This document shows positions 16,996 to 63,045 of a stretch of 64,000 bases of DNA, piece after piece. The translations under genes were made by a program, and so were the position numbers. Location of the stretch: the NCBI RefSeq assembly GCF_044704955.1, contig NC_091999.1, forward strand, positions 9,920,001-9,984,000, in the 5' to 3' direction. The number at the start of each line of letters is the position of its first letter. Position 1 is the first letter of the stretch. The notes beneath the pieces were generated by a model. That model did no database searches. It had not been told where the DNA came from and saw nothing but the letters and a program-made list of their open reading frames with translations. This DNA is from Pristiophorus japonicus (taxonomy: Eukaryota).

Positions 16996-19900
16996 AAACA
17001 TAGAAACATAGAAAATAGGTGCAGGAGCAGGCCATTCAGCCCTTCTCGCCTGCACCGCCATTCAATGAGTTCATGGCTAAACATGCAACTTCAGTACCCC
17101 CTTCCTACTTTCACGCCATACCCCTTGATCCCCCGAGTAGTAAGAACTTCATCTAACTCCCTTTTGAATATATTTAGTGAATTGGCCTCAACTACTTTCT
17201 GTGGTAGAGAATTCCACAGGTTCACCACTCTCTGGGTGAAGAAGTTTCTCCTTATCTCGGTCCTAAATGGCTTACCCCTTATCCTTAGATTGTGACCTCT
17301 GGTTCTGGACTTCCCCAACATTGGGAACATTCTTCCTGCATCCAACTTGTCCAAACCCGTCAGAATTTTAAACGTTTCTATGAGGTCCCCTCTCACTCTT
17401 CTGAACTCTAGTGAATACAAGCCCAGTTGATCCAGTCTTTCTTGATAGGTCAGTCACACCATCCCGGGAGTCAGTCTGGTGAATCCTCGCTGCACTCCCT
17501 CAATAGCAAGAATGTTCTTCCTCAAGTTAGGAGACCATAACTGTACCCAATACTCCAGGTGTGGCCTCACCAAGGCCCTGTACAACTGTAGCAACACCTC
17601 CCTGCCCCTGTATTCAAATCCCCTCGCTATGAAGGCCAACATGCCATTTGCTTTCTTAACCGCCTGCTGTACCTGCATGCCAACCTTCAATGACTGATGT
17701 ACCATGACACCCAGGTCTCGTTGCACCTTCCCTTTTCCTAATCTGTCACCATTCAGATAATAGTCTGTCTCTCTGTTTTTACCACCAAAGTGGATAACCT
17801 CACATTTATCCACATTATACTTCATCTGCCACGCATTTGCCCACTCACCTTACCTATCCAAGTCACTCTGCAGCCTCATAGCATCCTCCTCGCAGCTCAC
17901 ACTGCCACCCAACTTAGTGTCATCCGCAAATTTGGAGATACTACATTTAATCCCCTCGTCTAAATCATTAATGTACAATGTAAACAACTGGGGCCCCAGC
18001 ACAGAACCCTGCGGTACCCCACTAGTCACTGCCTGCCATTCCGAAAAGTCCCCATTTACTCCTACTCTTTGCTTCCTGTCTGACAACCAGTTCTCAATCC
18101 ACGTCAGCACACTACCCCCAATCCCATGTGCTTTAACTTTGCACATTAATCTCCTGTGTGGGACCTTGTCGAAAGCCTTCTGTAAGTCCAAATATACCAC
18201 ATCAACTGGTACTCCTTTGTCCACTTTATTGGAAACATCCTCAAAAAATTCCAGAAGATTTGTCAAGCATGATCTCCCTTCCACAAATCCATGCTGACTT
18301 GGACCTATCATGTCACCATTTTCCAAATGCGCTGCTATGACATCCTTAATAATTGATTCCATCATTTTACCCACTACTGATGTCAGGCTGACCGGTCTAT
18401 AATTCCCTGCTTTCTCTCTCCCTCCTCTTTTAAAAAGTGAGGTTACATTGGCTACCCTCCACTCGATAGGAACTGATCCAGAGTCAATGGAATGTTGGAA
18501 AATGAATGTCAATGCATCCGCTATTTCCAAGGCCACCTCCTTAAGTACTCTGGGATGCAGTCCATTAGGCCCTGGGGATTTATCGGCCTTCAATCCCATC
18601 AATTTCCCCAACACAATTTCCCGACTAATAAAGATTTCCCTCAGTTCCTCCTCATTACTAGACCCTCTGACCACTTTTATATCCGAAAGTTTGTTTGTGT
18701 CCTCCTTAGTGAATACTGAACCAAAGTACTTGTTCAATTGGTCTGCCATTTCTTTGTTCCCCGTTATGACTTCCCCTGATTCTGACTGCAGGGGACCTAC
18801 GTTTGTCTTTACTAACCTTTTTCTCTTTACATACGTATAGAAACTTTTGCAATCCGCCTTAATGTTCCCTGCAAGCTTCTTCTCGTACTCCATTTTCCCT
18901 GCCCGAATCAAACGCTTTGTCCTCCTCTGCTGAGTTCTAAATTTCTCCCAGTCCCCAGGTTCGCTGCTATTTCTGGCCAATTTGTATGCCATTTCCTTGG
19001 CTTTAATACTATCCCTGATTTCCCTAGATGGCCACGGTTGAGCCACCTTCCCTTTTTTATTTTTACGCCAGACAGGAATGTACAATTGTTGTAATTCATC
19101 CATGCGGTCTCTAAATGTCTGCCATTGCCCATCCACAGTCAACCCCTTAAGTATCATTAGCCAATCTATCTTAGCCAATTCATGCCTCATACCTTCAAAG
19201 TTACCCTTCTTTAAGTTCTGGACCATGGTCTCTGAATTAACTGTTTCATTCTCCATCCTAATGCAGAATTCCACCATATTATGGTCACTCTTCCCCAAGG
19301 GGCCTCGCACAATGAGATTGCTAATTAATCCTCTCTCATTACACAACACCCAGTCTAAGATGGCCTCCACTCTAGTTGGTTCCTCGACATATTGGTCTAG
19401 AAAACCATCCCTTATGCACTCCAGGAAATCCTCCTCCATCGTATTGCTTCCAGTTTGGCTGGCCCAATCTATGTGCATATTAAAGTCACCCATTATAACT
19501 GCTGAACCTTTATTGCATGCACTCCTAATTTCCTGTTTGATGCCCTCCCCAACATCACTACTACTGTTTGGAGAACTGTACACAACTCCCACTAACGATT
19601 TTTGACCTTTAGTGTTCTGCAGCTCTACCCATATAGATTCCACATCATCCAAGCTAATGTCTTTCCTAACTATTGCATTAATCTCCTCTTTAACCAGCAA
19701 TGCTACCCCACCTCCTTTTCCTTTTATTCTACCCTTCCTGAATGTTGAATACCCCTGGATGTTGAGTTCCCAGCCCTGATCATCCTGGAGCCACGTCTCT
19801 GTAATCCCAATCACATCATATTTGTTAACATCTATTTGCACTGTTAATTCATCCACCTTATTGCGGATACTCATTGCATTAAGACACAAAACCTTCAGGC

Positions 19901-20045
19901 TTGCTTTTTTAACACCCTTTGTCCTTTTAGAATTTTGCTGTACAGTGGCCCTTTTTGTTCTTTGCCTTGGGTTTCTCTGCCCTCCACTTTTCCTCATCTC
20001 CTTTCTGTCTTTTGCTTTTGCCTCATTTTTGTCTCCCTCTGTCTC
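16996..20045 (-). mobile_element. Young CR1 LINE with a near-intact ORF2 (755-aa EN and RT ORF)
   Basis: [34 protein letters not shown] and FADDTKL motifs; (CATAGAAA) tail at 16996. Confidence 0.95.
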
Positions 20046-20229
20046 CGTGTTGGTGTGCGCCCTTCTGCTCACCATCCTTCCATAAATGGCGTTCCGTATG
20101 ATGATGTCCAGATTCATCAGCTGCGAGATGCTGGTAGGAGCAAATCAGCAGGTCGTTTCCTTGTCTAGGTCTGACCCGAAGCCATGCGACTTCATTATGT
20201 TTACGCACAGCGTTGCGGACTCCCAGGGA

Positions 20230-50165: not shown

Positions 50166-50460
50166 GTGTGAGCCGACTCAGTGCATAGTAACACTTAGCG
50201 GAGTCCTTCAGTTGCAGTTTTGCGATGATTAACTGGCTGATTTTCTTTGCAGGATCAATAGAAGCAGAAATTCGGCCACCAGCAGCGTTTTTTTTATTCG
50301 CCTCTCCTGAAGTATGTCTCTGAAACAACTATTTCGGAGCCTGACCTGGGGACTGATTGTACCAGTGTAGTCTGTACTGACATATCCCTTAATATTCGCA
50401 GCTTAAAGTTACGGTTTCACCTGCAGCAGAGATTTGTAGAGGACACCGAGAAACTGGAAT
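50166..50460 (-). pseudogene. NAR-TCR supporting V-delta (leaderless, CDR1 Cys), pseudogene
   Basis: The acceptor CTGCAG|AT lies directly at the mature N-terminus. VTLSCEY*GICQYRLHWYNQSPGQAPK*...ISASIDPAKK...LQLKDSAKCYYALSR, with two stops and a frameshift. Heptamer CACAATG at 50165-50159. Confidence 0.85.
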
Positions 50461-53004: not shown

Positions 53005-53107
53005 CAGCTGTGACAGTTACCATCGTCGCGGATCCTTCCACAGAACCAAAAACCCACCCACCATCCACCACAGTGAAAGTGCTCCCAATCACTCCTGTAC
53101 AAGAACC
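53005..53107 (-). other. NAR-TCR-type J segment (53068-53005) with 5' 23-RSS (53107-53069)
   Basis: GGTTCTTGT + 23 + CACTGTG, then VDGGWVFGSVEGSATMVTVTA and a phase-1 G|GTAAGT donor. Confidence 0.88.
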
Positions 53108-53415
53108 ACTGACATCTCACTTTGCCGGCGCCACATCAGCAGTCATTCGCCGCTGCCCAATTATTCTAGGGATCAATAAACAATAACCCATAATTCAAAG
53201 TCCCCGTCGGATCAAAATGTTCTTCATGAGAGCTCTGAATAAAATGACCCAGGTACACGGGCCAGTGATGGGTGCTCATATAAACAGAGAAAATATCAAA
53301 GAAAGATAATGAATAGCGGGGAATTACAATACAAATAAATCAGATTATAATGATAATAAGATCAAACCGACAATTCAGGTTTCGGCCCGGAGCATTTATG
53401 TTTTAATTGCACACA

Positions 53416-53443
53416 GGTATTTGCTCAGATTTCTTCCACTGTG
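53416..53443 (-). other. 12-bp RSS 3' of the NAR V
   Basis: CACAGTG + GAAGAAATCTGA (12 nt) + GCAAATACC; there is no nonamer at the 23-nt position. Confidence 0.85.
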
Positions 53444-53915
53444 AGGTCCTGGTAGTCAGCTTTACAGTAATAGGTGGCACTGTCTTCAACTCGCAGATCC
53501 CCAATGTTCAGCCAAAATGTATTTTCTACGTTATTCGTCCTCACATGAAGTCGTCCTCTGCTCGAGATCCGCCCCCGCTCTGTCCTGATCTGGGTTTGTC
53601 TGAAGACATGGCCATATTTAAATAATCCAATGAATCACCACAGTAAATGCAGATGATGGTGAGTAACTGGCAATCCTTCCTGGTCATCGCTGGCGGGGAC
53701 TGCGTCACTGAACGACTGAAAGAGGGTGGAAATTAAATAGATAGAGTTTAATGGGCTATCTGAGCCGAACCGCATAACGGGGCTAAAAGGCAGACAGTGT
53801 GCACAATTCGGATGGAGACGGGCAGTTTTATATTAAATACACATAATATGGATTTGTTTGAAAAGTACTCATAGGGTAAACAGACACACTGGCTGAAAAT
53901 AAGGCGTATTCCCAT
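53444..53915 (-). pseudogene. IgNAR-like (NAR-TCR) V pseudogene (leader 53915-53873, V about 53725-53444)
   Basis: SVTQSPPAMTRKDCQLLTIICIYCGD, frameshift, then YGHVFRQTQ...RISSRGRLHVRTNNVENTFWLNIGDLRVEDSATYYCKA. It has the short VNAR FR2-CDR2 deletion and an FR1 Cys. Leader MGIRLIFSQCVCLP has its donor mutated to AT; TATA-like motif at about 53941-53947. Confidence 0.87.
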
Positions 53916-55899
53916 CGTTCTGCTACCTGGAGCTGATGGCTTATATGACAGGGAACTGGAGACTGAAGTCCCAGACTGCTCTGGGAGGCTGTATCTCAGC
54001 GCTGGACTGAGATACTTTGGATGATCGAGTTAATTAGCACAGTGCAGTGCCCCGGAGATCATTGATCCTTCGCAAGCTCCGCGAATCTCTGGCTGTGTGT
54101 TGCGTGAATAACCCACAGGTTTAAAGATTAACCTGCGTTACATTGGGTCTCTGAGCCCGAGTTAAAGGCCCCTCCCACATTAGTTTAATGTATAGGGGGG
54201 AGTTATTCTGTCATCAGAGGACGCTGTCTGCCTTTGTCCAAGAGTTAATGAGCTGAGAGGCCAGTTCATGTGTTTTATTGGGTGGTGTTTGTTGAGGGTG
54301 GAATGTGGTCGCAGAACACCGGGAGAGGCCTCACTCTTAATGCAATATTGCCGGGGATTTTTTAACCTACTCTGAACGGGCTGGCGGGACCTTGGTTAAA
54401 TGTTTGATCGAAGGACTGTGCATAAAACCCTGCACCAATCCCTCAGTCCAACGACTGGATGTCAGTTTCGAACATGAGACATCCCAGTGACATTTTCAAC
54501 ATACAGGGAGATACATACAATACATACAAGTAATAAACTCTCCCTAAACAAATACTTCCTGAATCATCCCCTTCTGTGTTTTGCATTTAAAATTGTATTT
54601 CAATTAAGTATTGATTTGTTTTAGATCTGTAATATTCTGAGTTGCGAGTTGCAGTGACAGAGAATGAAGCGACACTCGGAAGGTCAATGGACATTGGGAC
54701 AACTCTGTGCGTGTGGGTTGTTTTAAAGAGCACCATCACTACTTCATGAAATCTGTTCATTGTCTGTGAACTCTCTCTGACCCAGCTCTGATCAAATAAA
54801 CCCTGTGTACAGGCCGCGATCAAAGGGTCCGGGAGACTGATAAGGAATTTGTGTGAATGGCTGCACAATATTGCAGGCACGGAAAGGGCATAAAAGAACA
54901 ACAGGGCCACAGATGGATTGTACTTCAGAAAAACATGACGAAAAAATTGTCACATAAACATGGCCGACAGTACATAGCACAGAGATAGCAGACAAAACGT
55001 CACATAATAATGGCCGACTGTACATCACACGAGCATTGCCGACTGTGCATAATACAAATATGGCCGACAGCAAGTCCCATAAAGAGAGATGACTAATTGT
55101 CACATAAACATGGCCGACTGTAATTAAGACAATCATGGCGGTGGTTTGACCTGCAGTGGATGATGCCACAAAGCTTTCCGCACGTCACGCTAGTTACTCA
55201 CAGATTTTTAATGTTAAGGGTTGTTTTTCTCGCAGTATTTTCTATTTAACTTTCGAGTCACCCACTGATGGTGTTAGACAGAGGCTGGAATCCCGCAACG
55301 CCGGTTGTGCTGCAGCAGGGTCAGAATGTCCATCAGGTTCTCGAACTCGCATCCACTTAAGAGTAACATCTGAAAAGAACACACACAAAGTATTTGCTTC
55401 ATATGTGTGTGTGTGTGCGTGTGTGTATGTGTATGCGTGTGTGTCGGGGGGGGGCGGTGCGCATCAAACACAACATTCTTAATGTGTGCAAATGCATTCT
55501 ACAAAGATAAATTATGATTGTCACCAATTATGTTTCAGCATTTCATGTTTTTGCTCAACATCTGATGCAGATCTTTTAATATCTTTAACATTTATTGATG
55601 ACACCGTTTTCTTGAATGCTCTTGGTGACAAAGAGACGTCACGCTGACCATTCCTTTACTAAGGCAAGCCTGTCTGTCCAAAGTATTCAGTTCGAAAGGG
55701 GATTAAATCAAACAGAAGGTAGTGAGCAGCTACGCAGCAGTCTCTGCGTCTCATTGTCATATGATCACCTCAGCATCACACAGAAGTTTCTGATATACAC
55801 TGCAAGTGCATCATGCTTTGTGAAACTTAAGGTAAAAAAAGAAAATGTAGGTATACATGACATGCTTCTAAAATGTCCACATTGCAATATATGTGCGCA

Positions 55900-56169: not shown

Positions 56170-56700
56170 GACAAGTTACCGTATGGTTGAGATATAGAGT
56201 AAAGCTCCCTCTAAAATTTCCCGTCAATCACTCCCAGACCAGGTACAGCACGGGGTTAGATACAGAGTAATGCTCCCGCTGCACTGTCTCATCAAATCCT
56301 ACAGTGCAGGTACAGCACAGTTTAAATAGAGAGTACAGCCCCATGTACACTGTCCCATCAAACACTCCCAGGGAAAGTACAGCACGGGTTATATACAGAG
56401 TAAAGCTCCCTGTACACTGTCCCATCAAACACTCCCAGGGCAGGTAAAGCACGGGTGACCACAGAGTAAAGCTTCCTCTACACTGTCCCATCAAACGCTC
56501 CCAGGGCAGGTATAGCACAGTTTAGACACCGAGTAATGCTCTCTCTACACTATCCTATCAAACACTCCCAGGGCAGGTACAGCACTGGGTTAGATACAGA
56601 ATAAAGCTCCCTCTACACTGTCCCATCAAACACTCCCAGGGCAGGTACAGCATGGGTTAGATACAGAGTAAAGCTTCCTCTGCACGGTTCCATCAAGTTT
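56170..56700. repeat. ~62-bp tandem repeat array, about 8 copies
   Basis: Unit CACTCCCAGGGCAGGTACAGCACGGGTTAGATACAGAGTAAAGCTCCCTCTACACTGTCCCATCAAA. Confidence 0.9.
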
Positions 56701-57163
56701 CCATTGGCACGGGCCAATTCGCGATATTAACTGTTTTAATAGACTACTCTCCTAATTCTATTGGTAATTGCACTGACTAAACCCTTTGGTTCCCGAGGTG
56801 ATGTACTTAATGGCAAGCTAGATGATTCCAGGTGGGAAAAGGAATGGAAGGATATGTAATTAGGGTCGGATGAGATAAGTTGGATGAGGCTCCTGTGGAC
56901 CATAAACACCAGCATTGGCCAATTGGGCCGAATGGTCTATTTCTTTGATGTAAATTCTAAATGATTGTGCAATCGAACTCTTCAAGCGGCCAGACAGAAG
57001 GACTGCACCCCCTCTGCTCCAGGCTGGATAACCGGACAGGTCACAAATGGGAAAAGGGAATCCTTTAAAATTGAGCGCAAAGACATTTCTCTCACTTCTA
57101 ACCGCTGGTTTCATTGTCTCTGGAATTTCCAGTTAATTGAACTTTATTGTAACCGTTCTTCAG

Positions 57164-57560
57164 CGAAACACCCGCAGGAACGGTCTGTCTCTGTCCTCCT
57201 TTCCTCGGCAGAAGAATTCTCTGCTCAGAGGAACGTCACCCTCACCTGTTTAATGAAAGATTTCTCCGCCCCCCCACCCCCGAGAGATCTTCATCAAATG
57301 GAGCGTCAATCACAAGCCGGTGGATTCCGTCAACTACAAGAACACCGAGGTGATGGTGGAGAACGGCAGCAGCTCCTTCTTCATGTACAACCTGTGATCC
57401 ATTGCAGCGGACGAGTGGGCCAGCGGCGCTTCTTACTCCTGTGTGGACATGAAGCGATGGCCTTGAAGATGATCAACAAACGGTTAATAAATCCAGCTCA
57501 AAACCGAGATTAGTAAACATTATCTTGTTCTGATGGACACCCTCAATTATTAACAATTAG
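57164..57560 (+). pseudogene. IGHM: IgM heavy-chain C-mu4 plus secretory tail, pseudo-exon
   Basis: [33 protein letters not shown]...[11 protein letters not shown]...SIAADEWASGASYSCV..HEAM.LKMIN...NKSS.KP..VNI.LVLMDT matches shark C-mu4. It carries frameshifts and a stop; AATAAA at 57600-57605. Confidence 0.92.
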
Positions 57561-59373
57561 AATCCCTCGATTGCAATTTCAGTTTAGTAAATATAAACCA
57601 ATAAAGCCCGTTTCTTCCATCCATGAGTTAAGCACACAGCTGCTAAATTAATTTTGTTTCCCAGTTTGATAAGTCAGACAGTTTGTCTGTTTATCTGAAG
57701 CAGGACACTTGCCTTTCTTGTGTCCAAGGTTTGTACAGTAAGAGCTCCCAGTTCAAATACACCACGGGTTAGGGAGACTGTGAAAATCATTCCTGACAGG
57801 ATTCTACAAAGTAATTTCAGAAACTTTCCTCCCGATGCCGGAATCTGAAAAGTTCCCATTTCTGACAAACAAACACAGCATAGTTAAATCTCAGTGTCCC
57901 TTTTCTCGTGTTGTTCACCCATCATAATTCGAGCATTTATTATTTTGCAGCATCGCATATTCTGGGAACTGAAATGAGGGCCACACACGAATACGAACTG
58001 TACCTCCCACACCTCCACTAGAAGAGGGGAAATGGCAATTGTGAACCCACTGTACCACCCACTCCTCCATTAGAGAGAGAGAGAGAGTAATGGGTAACTG
58101 TTAACCCTCTGTACTTCACACTCGCTCACCAGAGAGAGGGGTATTGAACCACCTCTATTAAATGGTATTTTTTGCTATCACTCAAAAGTCAACTTCTAAC
58201 TCACTGTCCAAAAACATTAAACTTGCCGCATGCGAATCATACCGTAAAAAATATTTACTTAATATATTATTGTTAACTAGTTTTGGGGTTGAATATGCCC
58301 CTATTGTTCATAAACTAACCGATTGAATTTTAATAGTCCAATTATGAATTGGTGATTACATTCTCTGCGGGTTCTTGCCGCTTCTGTCCCTGATGTTCCT
58401 GACGCCCAAAGATTGATTTTTTTCTATTCCAATGGTTGGCGTCACTTTGCTTCTCACACAGAACACCTTTGCACAAGTGGGCGAGACTGCGTGTAAAATT
58501 CAGTGGGTGCGTGTTTAAATACATATAATTTCATGTAAACAAAAAGACACTTAAACAATCGACACAAAGACTTACACATAAATATATCCAAACTTACCGA
58601 AATAAATGTGCAGATACACATAAATTCAGTTATTTCGAATTGCATATAAACACATACTTTTACTCATCAACACATACATCGAAATACAAACACAGACTAA
58701 ACCACAACAAGAGATCATCACACACAGATATGAAAACACTAAATCACACAAAAGACACCAAGCTATTGAAGATTGTAGAATTAAAATGCGCTTTTGTTCA
58801 GGACACATTCTCTAACGGTTGTTCCGATTAAATAATTCCTGATACCATAACCTCTAACATGTTTCTATTGCGACCTACACCGGCACTGAATCAATCTTTT
58901 TGTTTGAAACTAATATACGTTAATCATGTTCAGAGCTTTGTCTATTAGAATTAAATAAACAAGATTATAACTCACATCTTGTCTTTTACCGAGTCCACTT
59001 GAAAATCTCCAAATAAGTATTTATCTAAACCTATCGTTAAAATAATTATCAGTTAGTGAAGCTCCCTCGATATTTCATCATATTATTCCCGAATGATAGA
59101 TCGTAAGAAATTGATTCAAAATCAACTGGCTTGTGATATTGAAGCAAAACTCATATTTTCCAACATACGAGGATCATAAAGATAGAGCGACTGTGGAGTT
59201 AGGAACACCGATAGCTTGCTGAGAGTGATTAACTTAACACAGGACATACATTGAAAATTAAATTAGAGAACAAACTAATACCTTAAGGAAAGGAAAATTG
59301 AATATATAATAATAACATGATATCTTGGATTAATAAAGAATCAGAATATATTTCCACCTCTACATCCCCGTAG

Positions 59374-59510
59374 ATTCCTCAGACCACATCTTGATTGAAG
59401 ACTGTGAGGAAGGGAGCGGCAACATCTGAACAAGTGCTTCCATATTAATTATCCTTTTCTTCCTGAGCATTTCCGACAACGCTGCCGTCAATCTGGTAAA
59501 GGTTAAATGA
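59374..59510 (+). pseudogene. IGHM: IgM transmembrane exon, pseudo
   Basis: CCCCGTAG acceptor; DSSDHILIEDCEEGSGNI*TSASILIILFFLSISDNAAVNLVKVK* (W->stop); AATAAA at 59708-59713. Confidence 0.9.
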
Positions 59511-60409
59511 TTCAATCCAGTCACAATTCGATCTGACTGAAGCGGTTGAAAAAACTCGATAAGTTTCATTGATAAAAACCGAGATAAATGCCCCAAACCA
59601 CTAAATTTCTGCTTCATTCTTTTACTCCTTTTACAGGGCAAGGGAAAATTGAATTTCTGCCGCAGTGGATTTTCCTCCTCTGTTTAGCAACATCTTTGTG
59701 TCATGAAAATAAAATATTTCTTCTTGGTGATTCTCAGAGTCAAATGTCTTCAGTTAATAGATTCTAATCTGTGGCTGAGAAAATCATAACTGGAATTTCC
59801 GTATTTCTGTTTGAAATGTGTGAGATAATCATGCCTATAATGTAAATGTATCTTCGAGTTTCACAGTTGTTTGAATATTTCATGTGTAATAATCACTTTT
59901 CTCGATCTTGATTCACATTTGTTTCCTTCCCTTTTTGTTGAGCACCTGCTTTCAATCCCTGGTGTGTGCTACAGTTGTAGAGGCAGCTGGGAGCTCAGAC
60001 CACCTGTGTTCTGATCTCAACGTGACACTCAGTTGTTGTATTCAATTTGTGTTAATTTTTTAAAAACGTCTCTGAAAAATGTAGTCTGTTACATTGTTAA
60101 TAAATCTGGAATGACAAATGGACTAACGTAGACTATGCTGAATTCCCTTCTCCTACACTTAACCACACCACTCCATTTTCCCTGTAGTAATCTGGAGTTG
60201 ACATTATTAAAAACGCGCCCTCTATTGGCGACACTCGCTAAGGCATGTTCTGCAGTTACGATAGCATCCATCATCTCTGGCAGTATTTGACTAAATCCAA
60301 AAGTTTCTTCAGCTAACACAGTTGTATATGGTGTATTTTGGAAGTTATAACAAATTGGCGACAAGGATGGGATCCTGATAAACAGTGAAAACATCCACCA
60401 GTTGTCCAG

Positions 60410-61489: not shown

Positions 61490-63045
61490 CGAAGAGGTGG
61501 CCTTGGAATTAGCGGATGCATTGACAATAATTTTCCAACATTCCATAGGCTCTGGATCAGTTCCTATCGAGTGGAGGGTAGCCAATGTAACCCCACTTTT
61601 TAAAAAAGGAGTTAGAGAGAAAACAGGGAATTATAGATCGGTCAGCCTGACCTCAGTAGTGGGTAAAATGATGGAATCAATTATTAAGGATGTCATAGCA
61701 GCGCATTTGGAAAGAGGTGACATGATAGGTCCAAGTCAGCATGGATTTGTGAAAGGGAAATCATGCTTGACAAATCTTTTGGAATTTTTTGAGGATGTTT
61801 CCAGTAGAGTGGACAAGGGAGAACCAGTTGAGGTGGTGTATTTGGACTTTCAGAAGGCTTTCGACAAGGCCCCACACAAGAGATTAATGTGCAAAGTTAA
61901 AGCACCATGGGATTAGGGGTAGTGTGCTGACATGGATTGAGAACTGGTTGTCAGACAGGAAGCAAAGAGTAGGAGTAAAGGGGTACTTGTCAGAATGGCA
62001 GGCAGTGAATAGTGGGGTATCGCAAGGTTCTGTGCTGGGGCCCCAGCTGTTTACAATGTACATTAATGATTTAGACGAAGGGATTAAATTTAGTATCTCC
62101 AAATTTGCGGATGACACTAAGTTGGGTGGCAGTGTGAGCTGCGAGGAGGATACTATGAGGCTGCAGAGTGACTTGGATAGGTTAGGTGAGTGGGCAAATG
62201 CATGGCAGATGAAAAATATAATGTGGATAAATGTGAGGTTATCCACTTTGGTGGCAAAATCAGAGAGACAGACTATTATCTGAATGGTGACAGATTAGGA
62301 AAAGGGGAGGTGCAACGAGACCTGGGTGTCATGGTACATCAGTCATTGAAGGTTGGCATGCAGGTACAGCAGGCGGTTAAGAAAGCAAATGGCATGTTGG
62401 CCTTCATACCGAGGGGATTTGAGTACAGGGGCAGGGAGGTGTTGCTACAGTTGTACAGGGCCTTGATGAGGCCACATCTGGAGTATTGTGTACAGTTTTG
62501 GTCTCCTAACTTGAGGAAGGACATTCTTGCTATTGAGGGAGTGCAGCGAAGGTTCACCGGATTGATTCCCGGGATGGCGGGACTGACCTATCAAGAAAGA
62601 ATGGATCAACTGGGCTTATATTCACTGGAGTTCAGAAGAATGAGAGGGGATCTCATAGAAACGTTTGAAATTCTGATGGGTTCAGACAGGTTAGATGCAG
62701 GAAGAATGTTCCCAATGTTGGGGAAGTCCAAAACCAGGGGTAACAGTCTAAGGATAAGGGGTAAGCTATTTAGGACTGAGATGAGAAGAAGCCTCTTCAC
62801 CCAGAGAGTGGTGAACCTGTGGAATTCTTACCACAGAAAGTTGTATAGGCCAATTCACTAAATATATTCAAAAAGGAGTTAGATGAAGTCCTTACTACTA
62901 GCGGGTTCAAGGTGTATGGCGAGAAAGCAGGAATGGGGTACTGAAGTTGCATGTTCAGCCATGAACTCATTGAATGGCGGAGCAGGCTAGAAGGGCCCAA
63001 TGGCCTACTCCTGCACCTATATTCTATGTTTCTATGTTTCTATGA
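61490..63045 (+). mobile_element. CR1 LINE 3' half
   Basis: RT motifs including FADDTKL; (TTCTATGT)n tail. Confidence 0.92.

What the first reader, a model, noticed from the sequence alone, without database searches (positions are those of the whole stretch)
57164..59713. Headless IgM remnant (C-mu4, secretory tail, TM) inside the TCR alpha/delta V array, back-to-back with the NAR cassette
Seen: C-mu4 with its tailpiece and polyA site, and a TM exon with its polyA site, in native order. I could not find VH, D, JH or C-mu1-3 in the 3.2 kb before the divergently oriented NAR leader. The cryptic TM donor (S-G|GT-K) is mutated to TCA. Known: IgH V segments and Ig remnants occur in the shark TCR delta locus and feed Ig-TCR chimeric rearrangements. 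Inference: this is the footprint of a whole IgM cluster inserted into the locus and then broken by inversion or deletion. Its VH may survive elsewhere as a TCR-associated VH, and its proximity may record how NAR-TCR arose from an IgH cluster.
Basis: partly seen in the sequence, partly recalled or inferred. Interest (0 to 1): 0.7.

Follow-up and report, generated by a model that had tools for sequence, protein, structure and literature searches.

The report
Dead antibody tail in T-cell locus
The broken back half of a shark IgM antibody gene lies among T-cell-receptor gene segments and is one of six such scraps on this chromosome, likely copied from one old insertion; it looks like ordinary debris of the known mixed antibody/T-cell region, and it is likely too young to record how the NAR-type T-cell receptor next to it arose.

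Summary
Window 56,707-60,185 is collinear with intact IgM clusters on the same chromosome: intron 3-4 tail, C-mu4 with secretory tail, TM1, TM2 and both polyA sites, all disabled. No C-mu1-3 or IgM V-D-J block occurs in 1.544 Mb scanned; the break lies about 55 nt after the C-mu3 donor. A second copy 1.48 Mb away has the same break and flank, which argues strongly against an assembly chimera. Four TM-only copies exist too. Both C-mu4 copies decay neutrally. The left flank holds a flipped piece of the IgM 5' spacer, which favours inversion plus deletion. The NAR-TCR link is not supported: only 2 of 8 fully scanned cassettes have a relic within 20 kb (chance P 0.34), and the relic carries elasmobranch residues while NAR-TCR predates the chimaera split. 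Headless IgM C regions among NAR-TCR and TCR V genes are already tabulated for great white shark and stingray (PMC12227049, table S1), and this scan noted similar relics in other genomes. By-catch: the neighbouring NAR-TCR cassette is a pseudogene with a germline V-D join.

The parts
55194..55864 (+). Piece 'X' of the IgM-cluster 5' spacer, flipped relative to the relic
   Evidence: 38 other main hits; 31 lie 26-92 kb upstream of a listed IgM C region on the opposite strand; low copy in the scanned TCR region
56185..56696 (+). 67-bp tandem array abutting the break; common shark repeat (17 arrays in 1.544 Mb)
   Evidence: a shorter array sits at the same place in the 11.46 Mb copy
56707..57163 (+). 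Tail of IgM intron C-mu3/C-mu4; 5' break about 55 nt after the C-mu3 donor
   Evidence: full-length alignments to other clusters nearly all start at window 56,705-56,708
57164..57559 (+). C-mu4 plus secretory tail, pseudo-exon: +10 nt (about 57,268), TGA 57,395, -4 nt (57,444), two -1 nt, donor GGT to TCA (57,498), tail Cys codon to TAA (57,551)
57600..57605 (+). Secretory polyA signal
59374..59501 (+). IgM TM1 exon, dead: Trp to TGA at 59,427, Tyr to Asp and Thr to Asn in the membrane span
59637..59713 (+). TM2 exon (stop lost, GGC AAG GGA) with 3' UTR and polyA signal at 59,708
59714..60185 (+). IgM 3' flank homology
53005..53915 (-). Neighbouring NAR-TCR L-V(D)-J cassette, pseudogene: leader donor GT to AT, 4-nt deletion in V, germline V-D join (V RSS, spacer and D 5' RSS gone; 8 nt then D 3' 12-RSS at 53,443)
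   Evidence: join spanned by contigs of both alleles in one sample
50176..50433 (-). NAR-TCR supporting V-delta, pseudogene with stops

Best explanation
This is the dead 3' half of an IgM heavy-chain cluster, likely left when a cluster lodged in the TCR alpha/delta V array was broken by an inversion plus deletion and then likely copied along with the surrounding V blocks, giving six scraps. Shown: collinearity with intact IgM clusters, position of the break, a second copy with the same break and flank, four TM-only copies, disabling lesions, and substitutions spread evenly over codon positions. Inferred: (1) a single insertion from the IgM array on the same chromosome; (2) an inversion with one end just after C-mu3 and the other at a 67-bp array in the 5' spacer, followed by loss of the flipped VH to C-mu3 head; a deletion between two head-to-head clusters would give the same junction; (3) spread by segmental and inverted duplication, with some gene conversion; (4) no function; (5) the position next to the NAR-TCR cassette is incidental and later than the origin of NAR-TCR.
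For: Collinearity with 4 of 4 clusters fetched. Copy at C23 11,456,001-11,464,558 (-) starts at the same intron point and shares flank 54,633-55,878 and the array. TM-only copies at 10.136, 10.154, 10.558 and 11.118 Mb (95% to 10.558). In a tree of the TM region, the 5 relics included split from 25 distinct intact-cluster sequences (bootstrap 86; window plus 11.46 copy 96). Private substitutions by codon position: 8/10/6 in the window copy, 11/11/13 in the 11.46 copy, against 51/59/141 among 29 array paralogs. Both copies share loss of the donor T and of the tail Cys codon. X is upstream and inverted at 31 of 38 other hits. V block window 25.9-49.5 kb recurs inverted at 11.470-11.494 Mb at 90-96%. 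Nearest NAR distances 4.6, 18.5, 35.5 and 65 kb; P(at least 1 of 4 within 5 kb) 0.27, P(at least 2 of 4 within 20 kb) 0.34. Homology with 7 of 7 other scanned NAR cassettes stops at 54,207-54,213.
Against: The TM tree has no outgroup, and shared lesions conflict with it (TGA in window and 10.154; TTGATT in window, 10.154 and 11.456 but not 10.136), so conversion or more than one donor is possible. X also occurs as a 1.3-kb piece on C2 with no IgM found in the 10 kb fetched, at the same 73% identity, so it may be a low-copy mobile element. 67-bp arrays are common. An AU test rejected none of five placements of the relic C-mu4 within or beside elasmobranchs (p 0.38-0.51), so the date is loose. 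11.014-11.444 Mb and beyond 11.494 Mb were not fetched. No short-read contig bridges the array.
Confidence: 0.8

Rival explanations
1. The relic is the discarded tail of the cluster whose flipped head supplied IgH V segments to TCR-delta (TAILV or IgHV-TCR-delta chimeras), for example the VH-like gene at C23 9.7465 Mb.
For: The inversion reading puts the head on the minus strand, the same strand as D-delta and J-delta. The 9.7465 Mb VH is on the minus strand and 65-69% identical in DNA to IgM VH, which pseudogene decay plus fast V evolution could reach.
Against: It is 230 kb away with about 40 V-type hits between. Its homology to an IgM cluster covers only leader to RSS, with no V-D intron, D or promoter, while the relic's introns align at 66-80%. 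It is as far from Triakis VH (57%) as from this genome's VH (56%). Catshark has TAILV plus an IgW V at the same C-delta-proximal place (PMC12227049 table S1), which suggests an older pair.
Confidence: 0.08
2. The relic and the NAR-TCR cassette came together from one IgH cluster, so the arrangement records the birth of NAR-TCR.
For: The NAR L-V-D-J lies on the minus strand 1.3 kb left of X, where a flipped IgH head is predicted; a second cassette (10.119 Mb) has a TM relic 18 kb upstream; the AU test does not reject a stem-elasmobranch position.
Against: NAR V is only 55-58% identical in DNA to IgM VH. 6 of 8 scanned cassettes have no relic within 20 kb and the other 7 lack X. At 20 sites where sharks and skate agree against the chimaera majority, the window copy has the elasmobranch residue at 16 and the chimaera residue at 1; the 11.46 copy 13 and 0 (counted from the table). 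NAR-TCR is in the elephant shark (PMC1845163), and the published view is transfer of NAR V from TCR to an IgW cluster (PMC12227049).
Confidence: 0.04
3. The junction is an assembly chimera across the 56.2-56.7 kb array.
For: No Logan contig of the source-like sample bridges the array.
Against: The same flank-array-intron order is assembled independently at 11.46 Mb with 16-25% divergence; no N gaps in 1.544 Mb; contigs match both sides at single-copy-like depth.
Confidence: 0.02
4. The exons are kept for a use, such as a sterile or antisense transcript from the NAR promoter or a local enhancer.
For: Splice acceptors and both polyA signals survive; six copies persist.
Against: Flat codon-position decay and different frameshifts in each C-mu4 copy; four copies have lost C-mu4; the neighbouring NAR cassette is itself dead.
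Confidence: 0.06

Closest known systems
Elasmobranch antigen-receptor complex (AgRC), Flajnik et al. 2025, PMC12227049 (read parts 1-2 of 8, passages, and supplementary table S1 in full)
   Same: IgH clusters and TCR alpha/delta on one chromosome. Table S1 lists 'IgM (missing V)', 'IgM pseudo?' and IgM among NARTCR and TCR V models in great white shark (one IgM 42 kb from a divergent NARTCR) and 'IgM C only' and 'IgM pseudo' next to NARTCRV in stingray.
   Different: Those are gene-model listings without breakpoints. Here the relic lacks C-mu1-3 as well, has a mapped break and a flipped spacer piece, and occurs in six copies.
Shark IgM heavy-chain cluster (V-D-D-J-C-mu1-4-TM1-TM2)
   Same: Exon order, introns, tail and TM sequence; 81-83% DNA identity at C-mu4.
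   Different: No head; every remaining exon disabled.
TAILV and IgHV-TCR-delta chimeras (Criscitiello 2010, Deiss 2019; papers not held, seen only as cited in PMC12227049 and PMC5931798)
   Same: IgH material inside the TCR-delta locus.
   Different: Those are V segments used in rearrangement; this is constant-region debris with no RSS.
Germline-joined shark Ig genes (Lee et al. 2000, PMC2193156, abstract seen)
   Same: The neighbouring NAR cassette has a V-D join with both signals removed and short trimming.
   Different: It is in a TCR-locus cassette and is a pseudogene; table S1 of PMC12227049 labels one great white model 'NARTCR V(gj)', which I read as germline-joined.

Membership tests
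IgM constant region (pseudogene fragment) | Last C domain most like named shark IgM C-mu4 with secretory tail | tested here: met
   Paralog 81-87% to named Triakis and nurse IgM; relic 72-77% to this genome's IgM, 63-75% to galeomorph IgM
IgM constant region (pseudogene fragment) | Collinear with four-C-domain clusters, introns included | tested here: met
IgM constant region (pseudogene fragment) | Closer to IgM than to IgW or IgNAR last domain and TM | tested here: inconclusive
   No protein named IgW or IgNAR was returned, so no direct comparison; intron collinearity with IgM clusters stands in for it
Functional IgM cluster | VH, D, JH and C-mu1-3 upstream | tested here: not met
Functional IgM cluster | Open C-mu4, intact cryptic donor, tail Cys, open TM1, TM2 stop | tested here: not met
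TAILV / TCR-associated IgH V | IgH-like V with RSS | tested here: not met
   No V or RSS in the relic
Part of the NAR-TCR repeating unit | Recurs at a fixed place beside NAR cassettes | tested here: not met
   2 of 8 scanned cassettes within 20 kb, in opposite relative orientations; P 0.34
Germline-joined V-D (neighbouring NAR cassette) | Both RSS and spacer lost with ends near the coding borders; present on both alleles | tested here: met
   1 of 8 cassettes lacks the V 22-RSS; contigs of two alleles span it, one sample only
Germline-joined V-D (neighbouring NAR cassette) | Made by RAG in germ cells | not testable with these tools
   Inferred from junction anatomy only

The most novel reading that the evidence does not exclude
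The flipped 5'-spacer piece marks an inversion that turned a whole IgM V-D-J head into the reading direction of D-delta and J-delta inside the TCR V array, so the six tails are the fossil of the route by which IgH V segments are delivered to shark TCR-delta, and the lost head or its copies survive as TCR-used VH.
Probability: 0.1. Interest if true: 0.55.

Novelty: new member of a known kind. Interest (0 to 1): 0.22.

Why it matters
Little as biology: it is neutral debris of a described Ig/TCR complex. It gives a mapped example of DNA traffic from the IgM array into the TCR alpha/delta V array, and six copies that help order the duplications of that array. It would matter more only if its lost head proved to be a source of TCR-used VH.

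Tried and rejected
A shared 410-bp intron deletion as a mark of common descent: rejected, because other IgM subfamilies have the short intron too; my notebook entry 2 is wrong on this. Collinearity of X with a 67-bp array in cluster K53: the 2 kb between them does not align, so it is weak support only. The lead from earlier notes that a TCR V 3.3 kb behind IgM TM2 links these relics to the IgM array: the V behind the 10.136 relic had no hit in the IgM array among 40 scored of 9,793 candidates. Dating by protein tree: bootstrap 56-63 at the relic nodes and AU test uninformative (four unnamed or chimeric proteins and 15 of 24 own paralog rows were dropped for the AU test). DNA search with the 9.7465 Mb VH region was swamped by a repeat. 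Comparison of the window NAR V with other species was out of frame and is discarded. Expression: no RNA holder listed; run X5 showed only paralog-type C-mu4 contigs; neither counts as evidence. Deiss 2019, Ott 2021, Criscitiello 2006 and Matz 2021 were not held, so a description of C-exon relics in the nurse shark TCR-delta BACs cannot be excluded. Seven paper searches listed no paper on such relics in this lineage; bioRxiv supplements were closed.

Full report
Setting. The window is G000:C23:9,920,001-9,984,000 of a 5.9-Gb shark genome. The closest named proteins to an intact NAR-TCR V of this genome are from Pristiophorus japonicus (90-92%), so it is likely a sawshark. On C23, C-alpha lies at 9.579 Mb, 99 J-alpha candidates at 9.585-9.683, C-delta at 9.72, four J-delta and one D-delta at 9.728-9.737, all on the minus strand. 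The V array runs from 9.75 to at least 11.49 Mb (279 V-type loci in the 1.544 Mb fetched), with 11 NAR-TCR cassettes at 9.97-11.34 Mb. IgM clusters fill 13.9-66 Mb of the same chromosome.

The observation. Window 56,707-60,185 aligns in order to 4 of 4 IgM clusters fetched (66-80% by segment). It holds the tail of intron C-mu3/4, C-mu4 with the secretory tail (from 57,164), polyA at 57,600, TM1 (59,374-59,501), TM2 (from 59,637), polyA at 59,708 and 3' flank. C-mu4 has a 10-nt insertion, a TGA, deletions of 4, 1 and 1 nt, the donor GGT changed to TCA, and the tail Cys codon changed to a stop. TM1 has a Trp-to-stop change and TM2 has lost its stop. The paralog exon is 87% identical to Triakis IgM and 81-82% to nurse shark IgM. 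No protein named IgW or IgNAR came up for direct comparison.

The missing head. Protein and DNA searches with VH, JH and C-mu1-3 of an intact cluster over 9.520-11.014 and 11.444-11.494 Mb found no C-mu1-3 and no V-D-J block, while finding the decayed C-mu4 and TM copies. The only VH-like genes are two frameshifted ones at 9.7465 and 9.7494 Mb, next to D-delta. The first is 65-69% identical in DNA to IgM VH, against 88% between two IgM VH, and aligns only from leader to RSS. Catshark has TAILV and an IgW V about 2 kb apart at the same place (PMC12227049 table S1). I infer these are older residents, but cannot exclude kinship with the relic.

The break. IgM homology begins at window 56,705-56,707, about 55 nt after the C-mu3 donor, directly after the 67-bp array. 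A second copy at C23 11,456,001-11,464,558 (minus) begins at the same point and shares the array and the flank 54,633-55,878 at 75-84% identity; its C-mu4 is split by a 3.5-kb insertion, mostly LINE, and no NAR cassette lies beside it. A junction assembled twice with this divergence is very unlikely to be a chimera, although no short-read contig bridges the array. Within the flank, 55,194-55,864 (X) is low copy in the TCR region, yet 31 of its 38 other main hits lie 26-92 kb upstream of a listed IgM constant region on the opposite strand; one search adds an IgM hit 86 kb from the C645 copy. I infer that X came with the cluster and was flipped: an inversion from the 5' spacer to just after C-mu3, then loss of the head. 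A deletion between two head-to-head clusters gives the same junction. Against this, X also stands on C2 at equal identity with no IgM found in 10 kb. I put the inversion or head-to-head step at about 0.6.

Copies and decay. TM-only relics lie at 10.136, 10.154, 10.558 and 11.118 Mb, all on the minus strand. The five in the tree are 73-84% identical to each other and 73-80% to intact clusters, and they split from 25 intact sequences with bootstrap 86. The tree is unrooted and some shared lesions conflict with it, so conversion is likely. The two C-mu4 copies share loss of the donor T and of the tail Cys but have different frameshifts. Their private changes fall 8/10/6 and 11/11/13 on codon positions 1/2/3, against 51/59/141 among array paralogs: neutral decay since duplication. 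The V block at window 25.9-49.5 kb recurs inverted at 11.470-11.494 Mb at 90-96%, which shows continued block copying.

The NAR link. Relics lie 4.6, 18.5, 35.5 and 65 kb from the nearest cassette in the scanned array; random placement gives P 0.27 for one within 5 kb and 0.34 for two within 20 kb. The 11.118 and 11.46 copies are about 70 and 118 kb from listed cassettes. Homology among cassettes ends at 54,207-54,213 in 7 of 7. NAR V is 55-58% identical to VH in DNA. NAR-TCR exists in the elephant shark (PMC1845163, passages), about 420 Myr from elasmobranchs (PMC3964593, passages). At 20 C-mu4 sites where sharks and skate agree against the majority of three chimaera sequences, the window copy has the elasmobranch residue at 16 and the chimaera residue at 1; both relic copies share two residues otherwise seen only in this genome's IgM majority, but keep older residues at four other sites in one or both copies (table). 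The AU test rejected no placement among five. So the relic likely postdates NAR-TCR, with a loose date.

By-catch. The adjacent cassette lacks the V 22-RSS, about 390 bp of spacer and the D 5' RSS; V is cut about 10 nt short and followed by 8 nt and the D 3' 12-RSS. The other 7 scanned cassettes keep the V RSS. Contigs of two alleles span the join (one sample). It also has a 4-nt deletion and a dead leader donor. This fits germline RAG joining as described for shark Ig (PMC2193156, abstract); table S1 of PMC12227049 labels the first great white NARTCR model after TCR-alpha C as 'V(gj)'.

Comparison and verdict. Table S1 of PMC12227049 already lists V-less and C-only IgM among NARTCR and TCR V genes in great white shark and stingray. 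Earlier notes of this scan report like relics in other genomes (unchecked). The key nurse shark papers were not held. The feature is real and ordinary: a new member of a known kind, interest 0.22.

Noticed in passing
window 53,005-53,915 (-): NAR-TCR cassette with a germline V-D join, a 4-nt frameshift and a dead leader donor; the most C-proximal and most diverged of 11 cassettes (73-78% to the others).
   Followed up: partly
G000:C23:11,470,000-11,494,000: Inverted copy of window 25.9-49.5 kb at 90-96% identity, ending just before the supporting V-delta; the relic beside it is only 75-84% identical, so the block is a mosaic of two ages.
   Followed up: partly
G000:C23:9,746,507-9,746,980 and 9,749,370-9,749,720 (-): Two frameshifted IgH-like V genes just upstream of D-delta, at the place of catshark TAILV plus IgW V; both appear dead in this genome.
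   Followed up: partly
G000:C23:5,530,115-5,530,519 (+): IgM intron and C-mu4 hit on the other side of the TCR locus.
   Followed up: no
L002, L010, L015: An IgM subfamily whose secretory tail ends NINSYQ, without the penultimate Cys.
   Followed up: no
window 55,194-55,864 and L031:2291-2895: X begins at an acceptor-like polypyrimidine-CAG and ends near an AATAAA in the cluster copy; it may be a terminal exon or a low-copy mobile element carried in the IgM cluster unit.
   Followed up: partly
L034:4636-4645 region (cluster K53 TM2): TM2 of this IgM subfamily begins CTC AAG TGA (Leu-Lys), whereas two relics keep GTC AAG TGA (Val-Lys); locus coordinates approximate.
   Followed up: no
window 17,094-20,144 (-) and 61,494-63,043: Young LINE-type retroelement copies with long open frames, about 93% identical to copies elsewhere on C23.
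   Followed up: no
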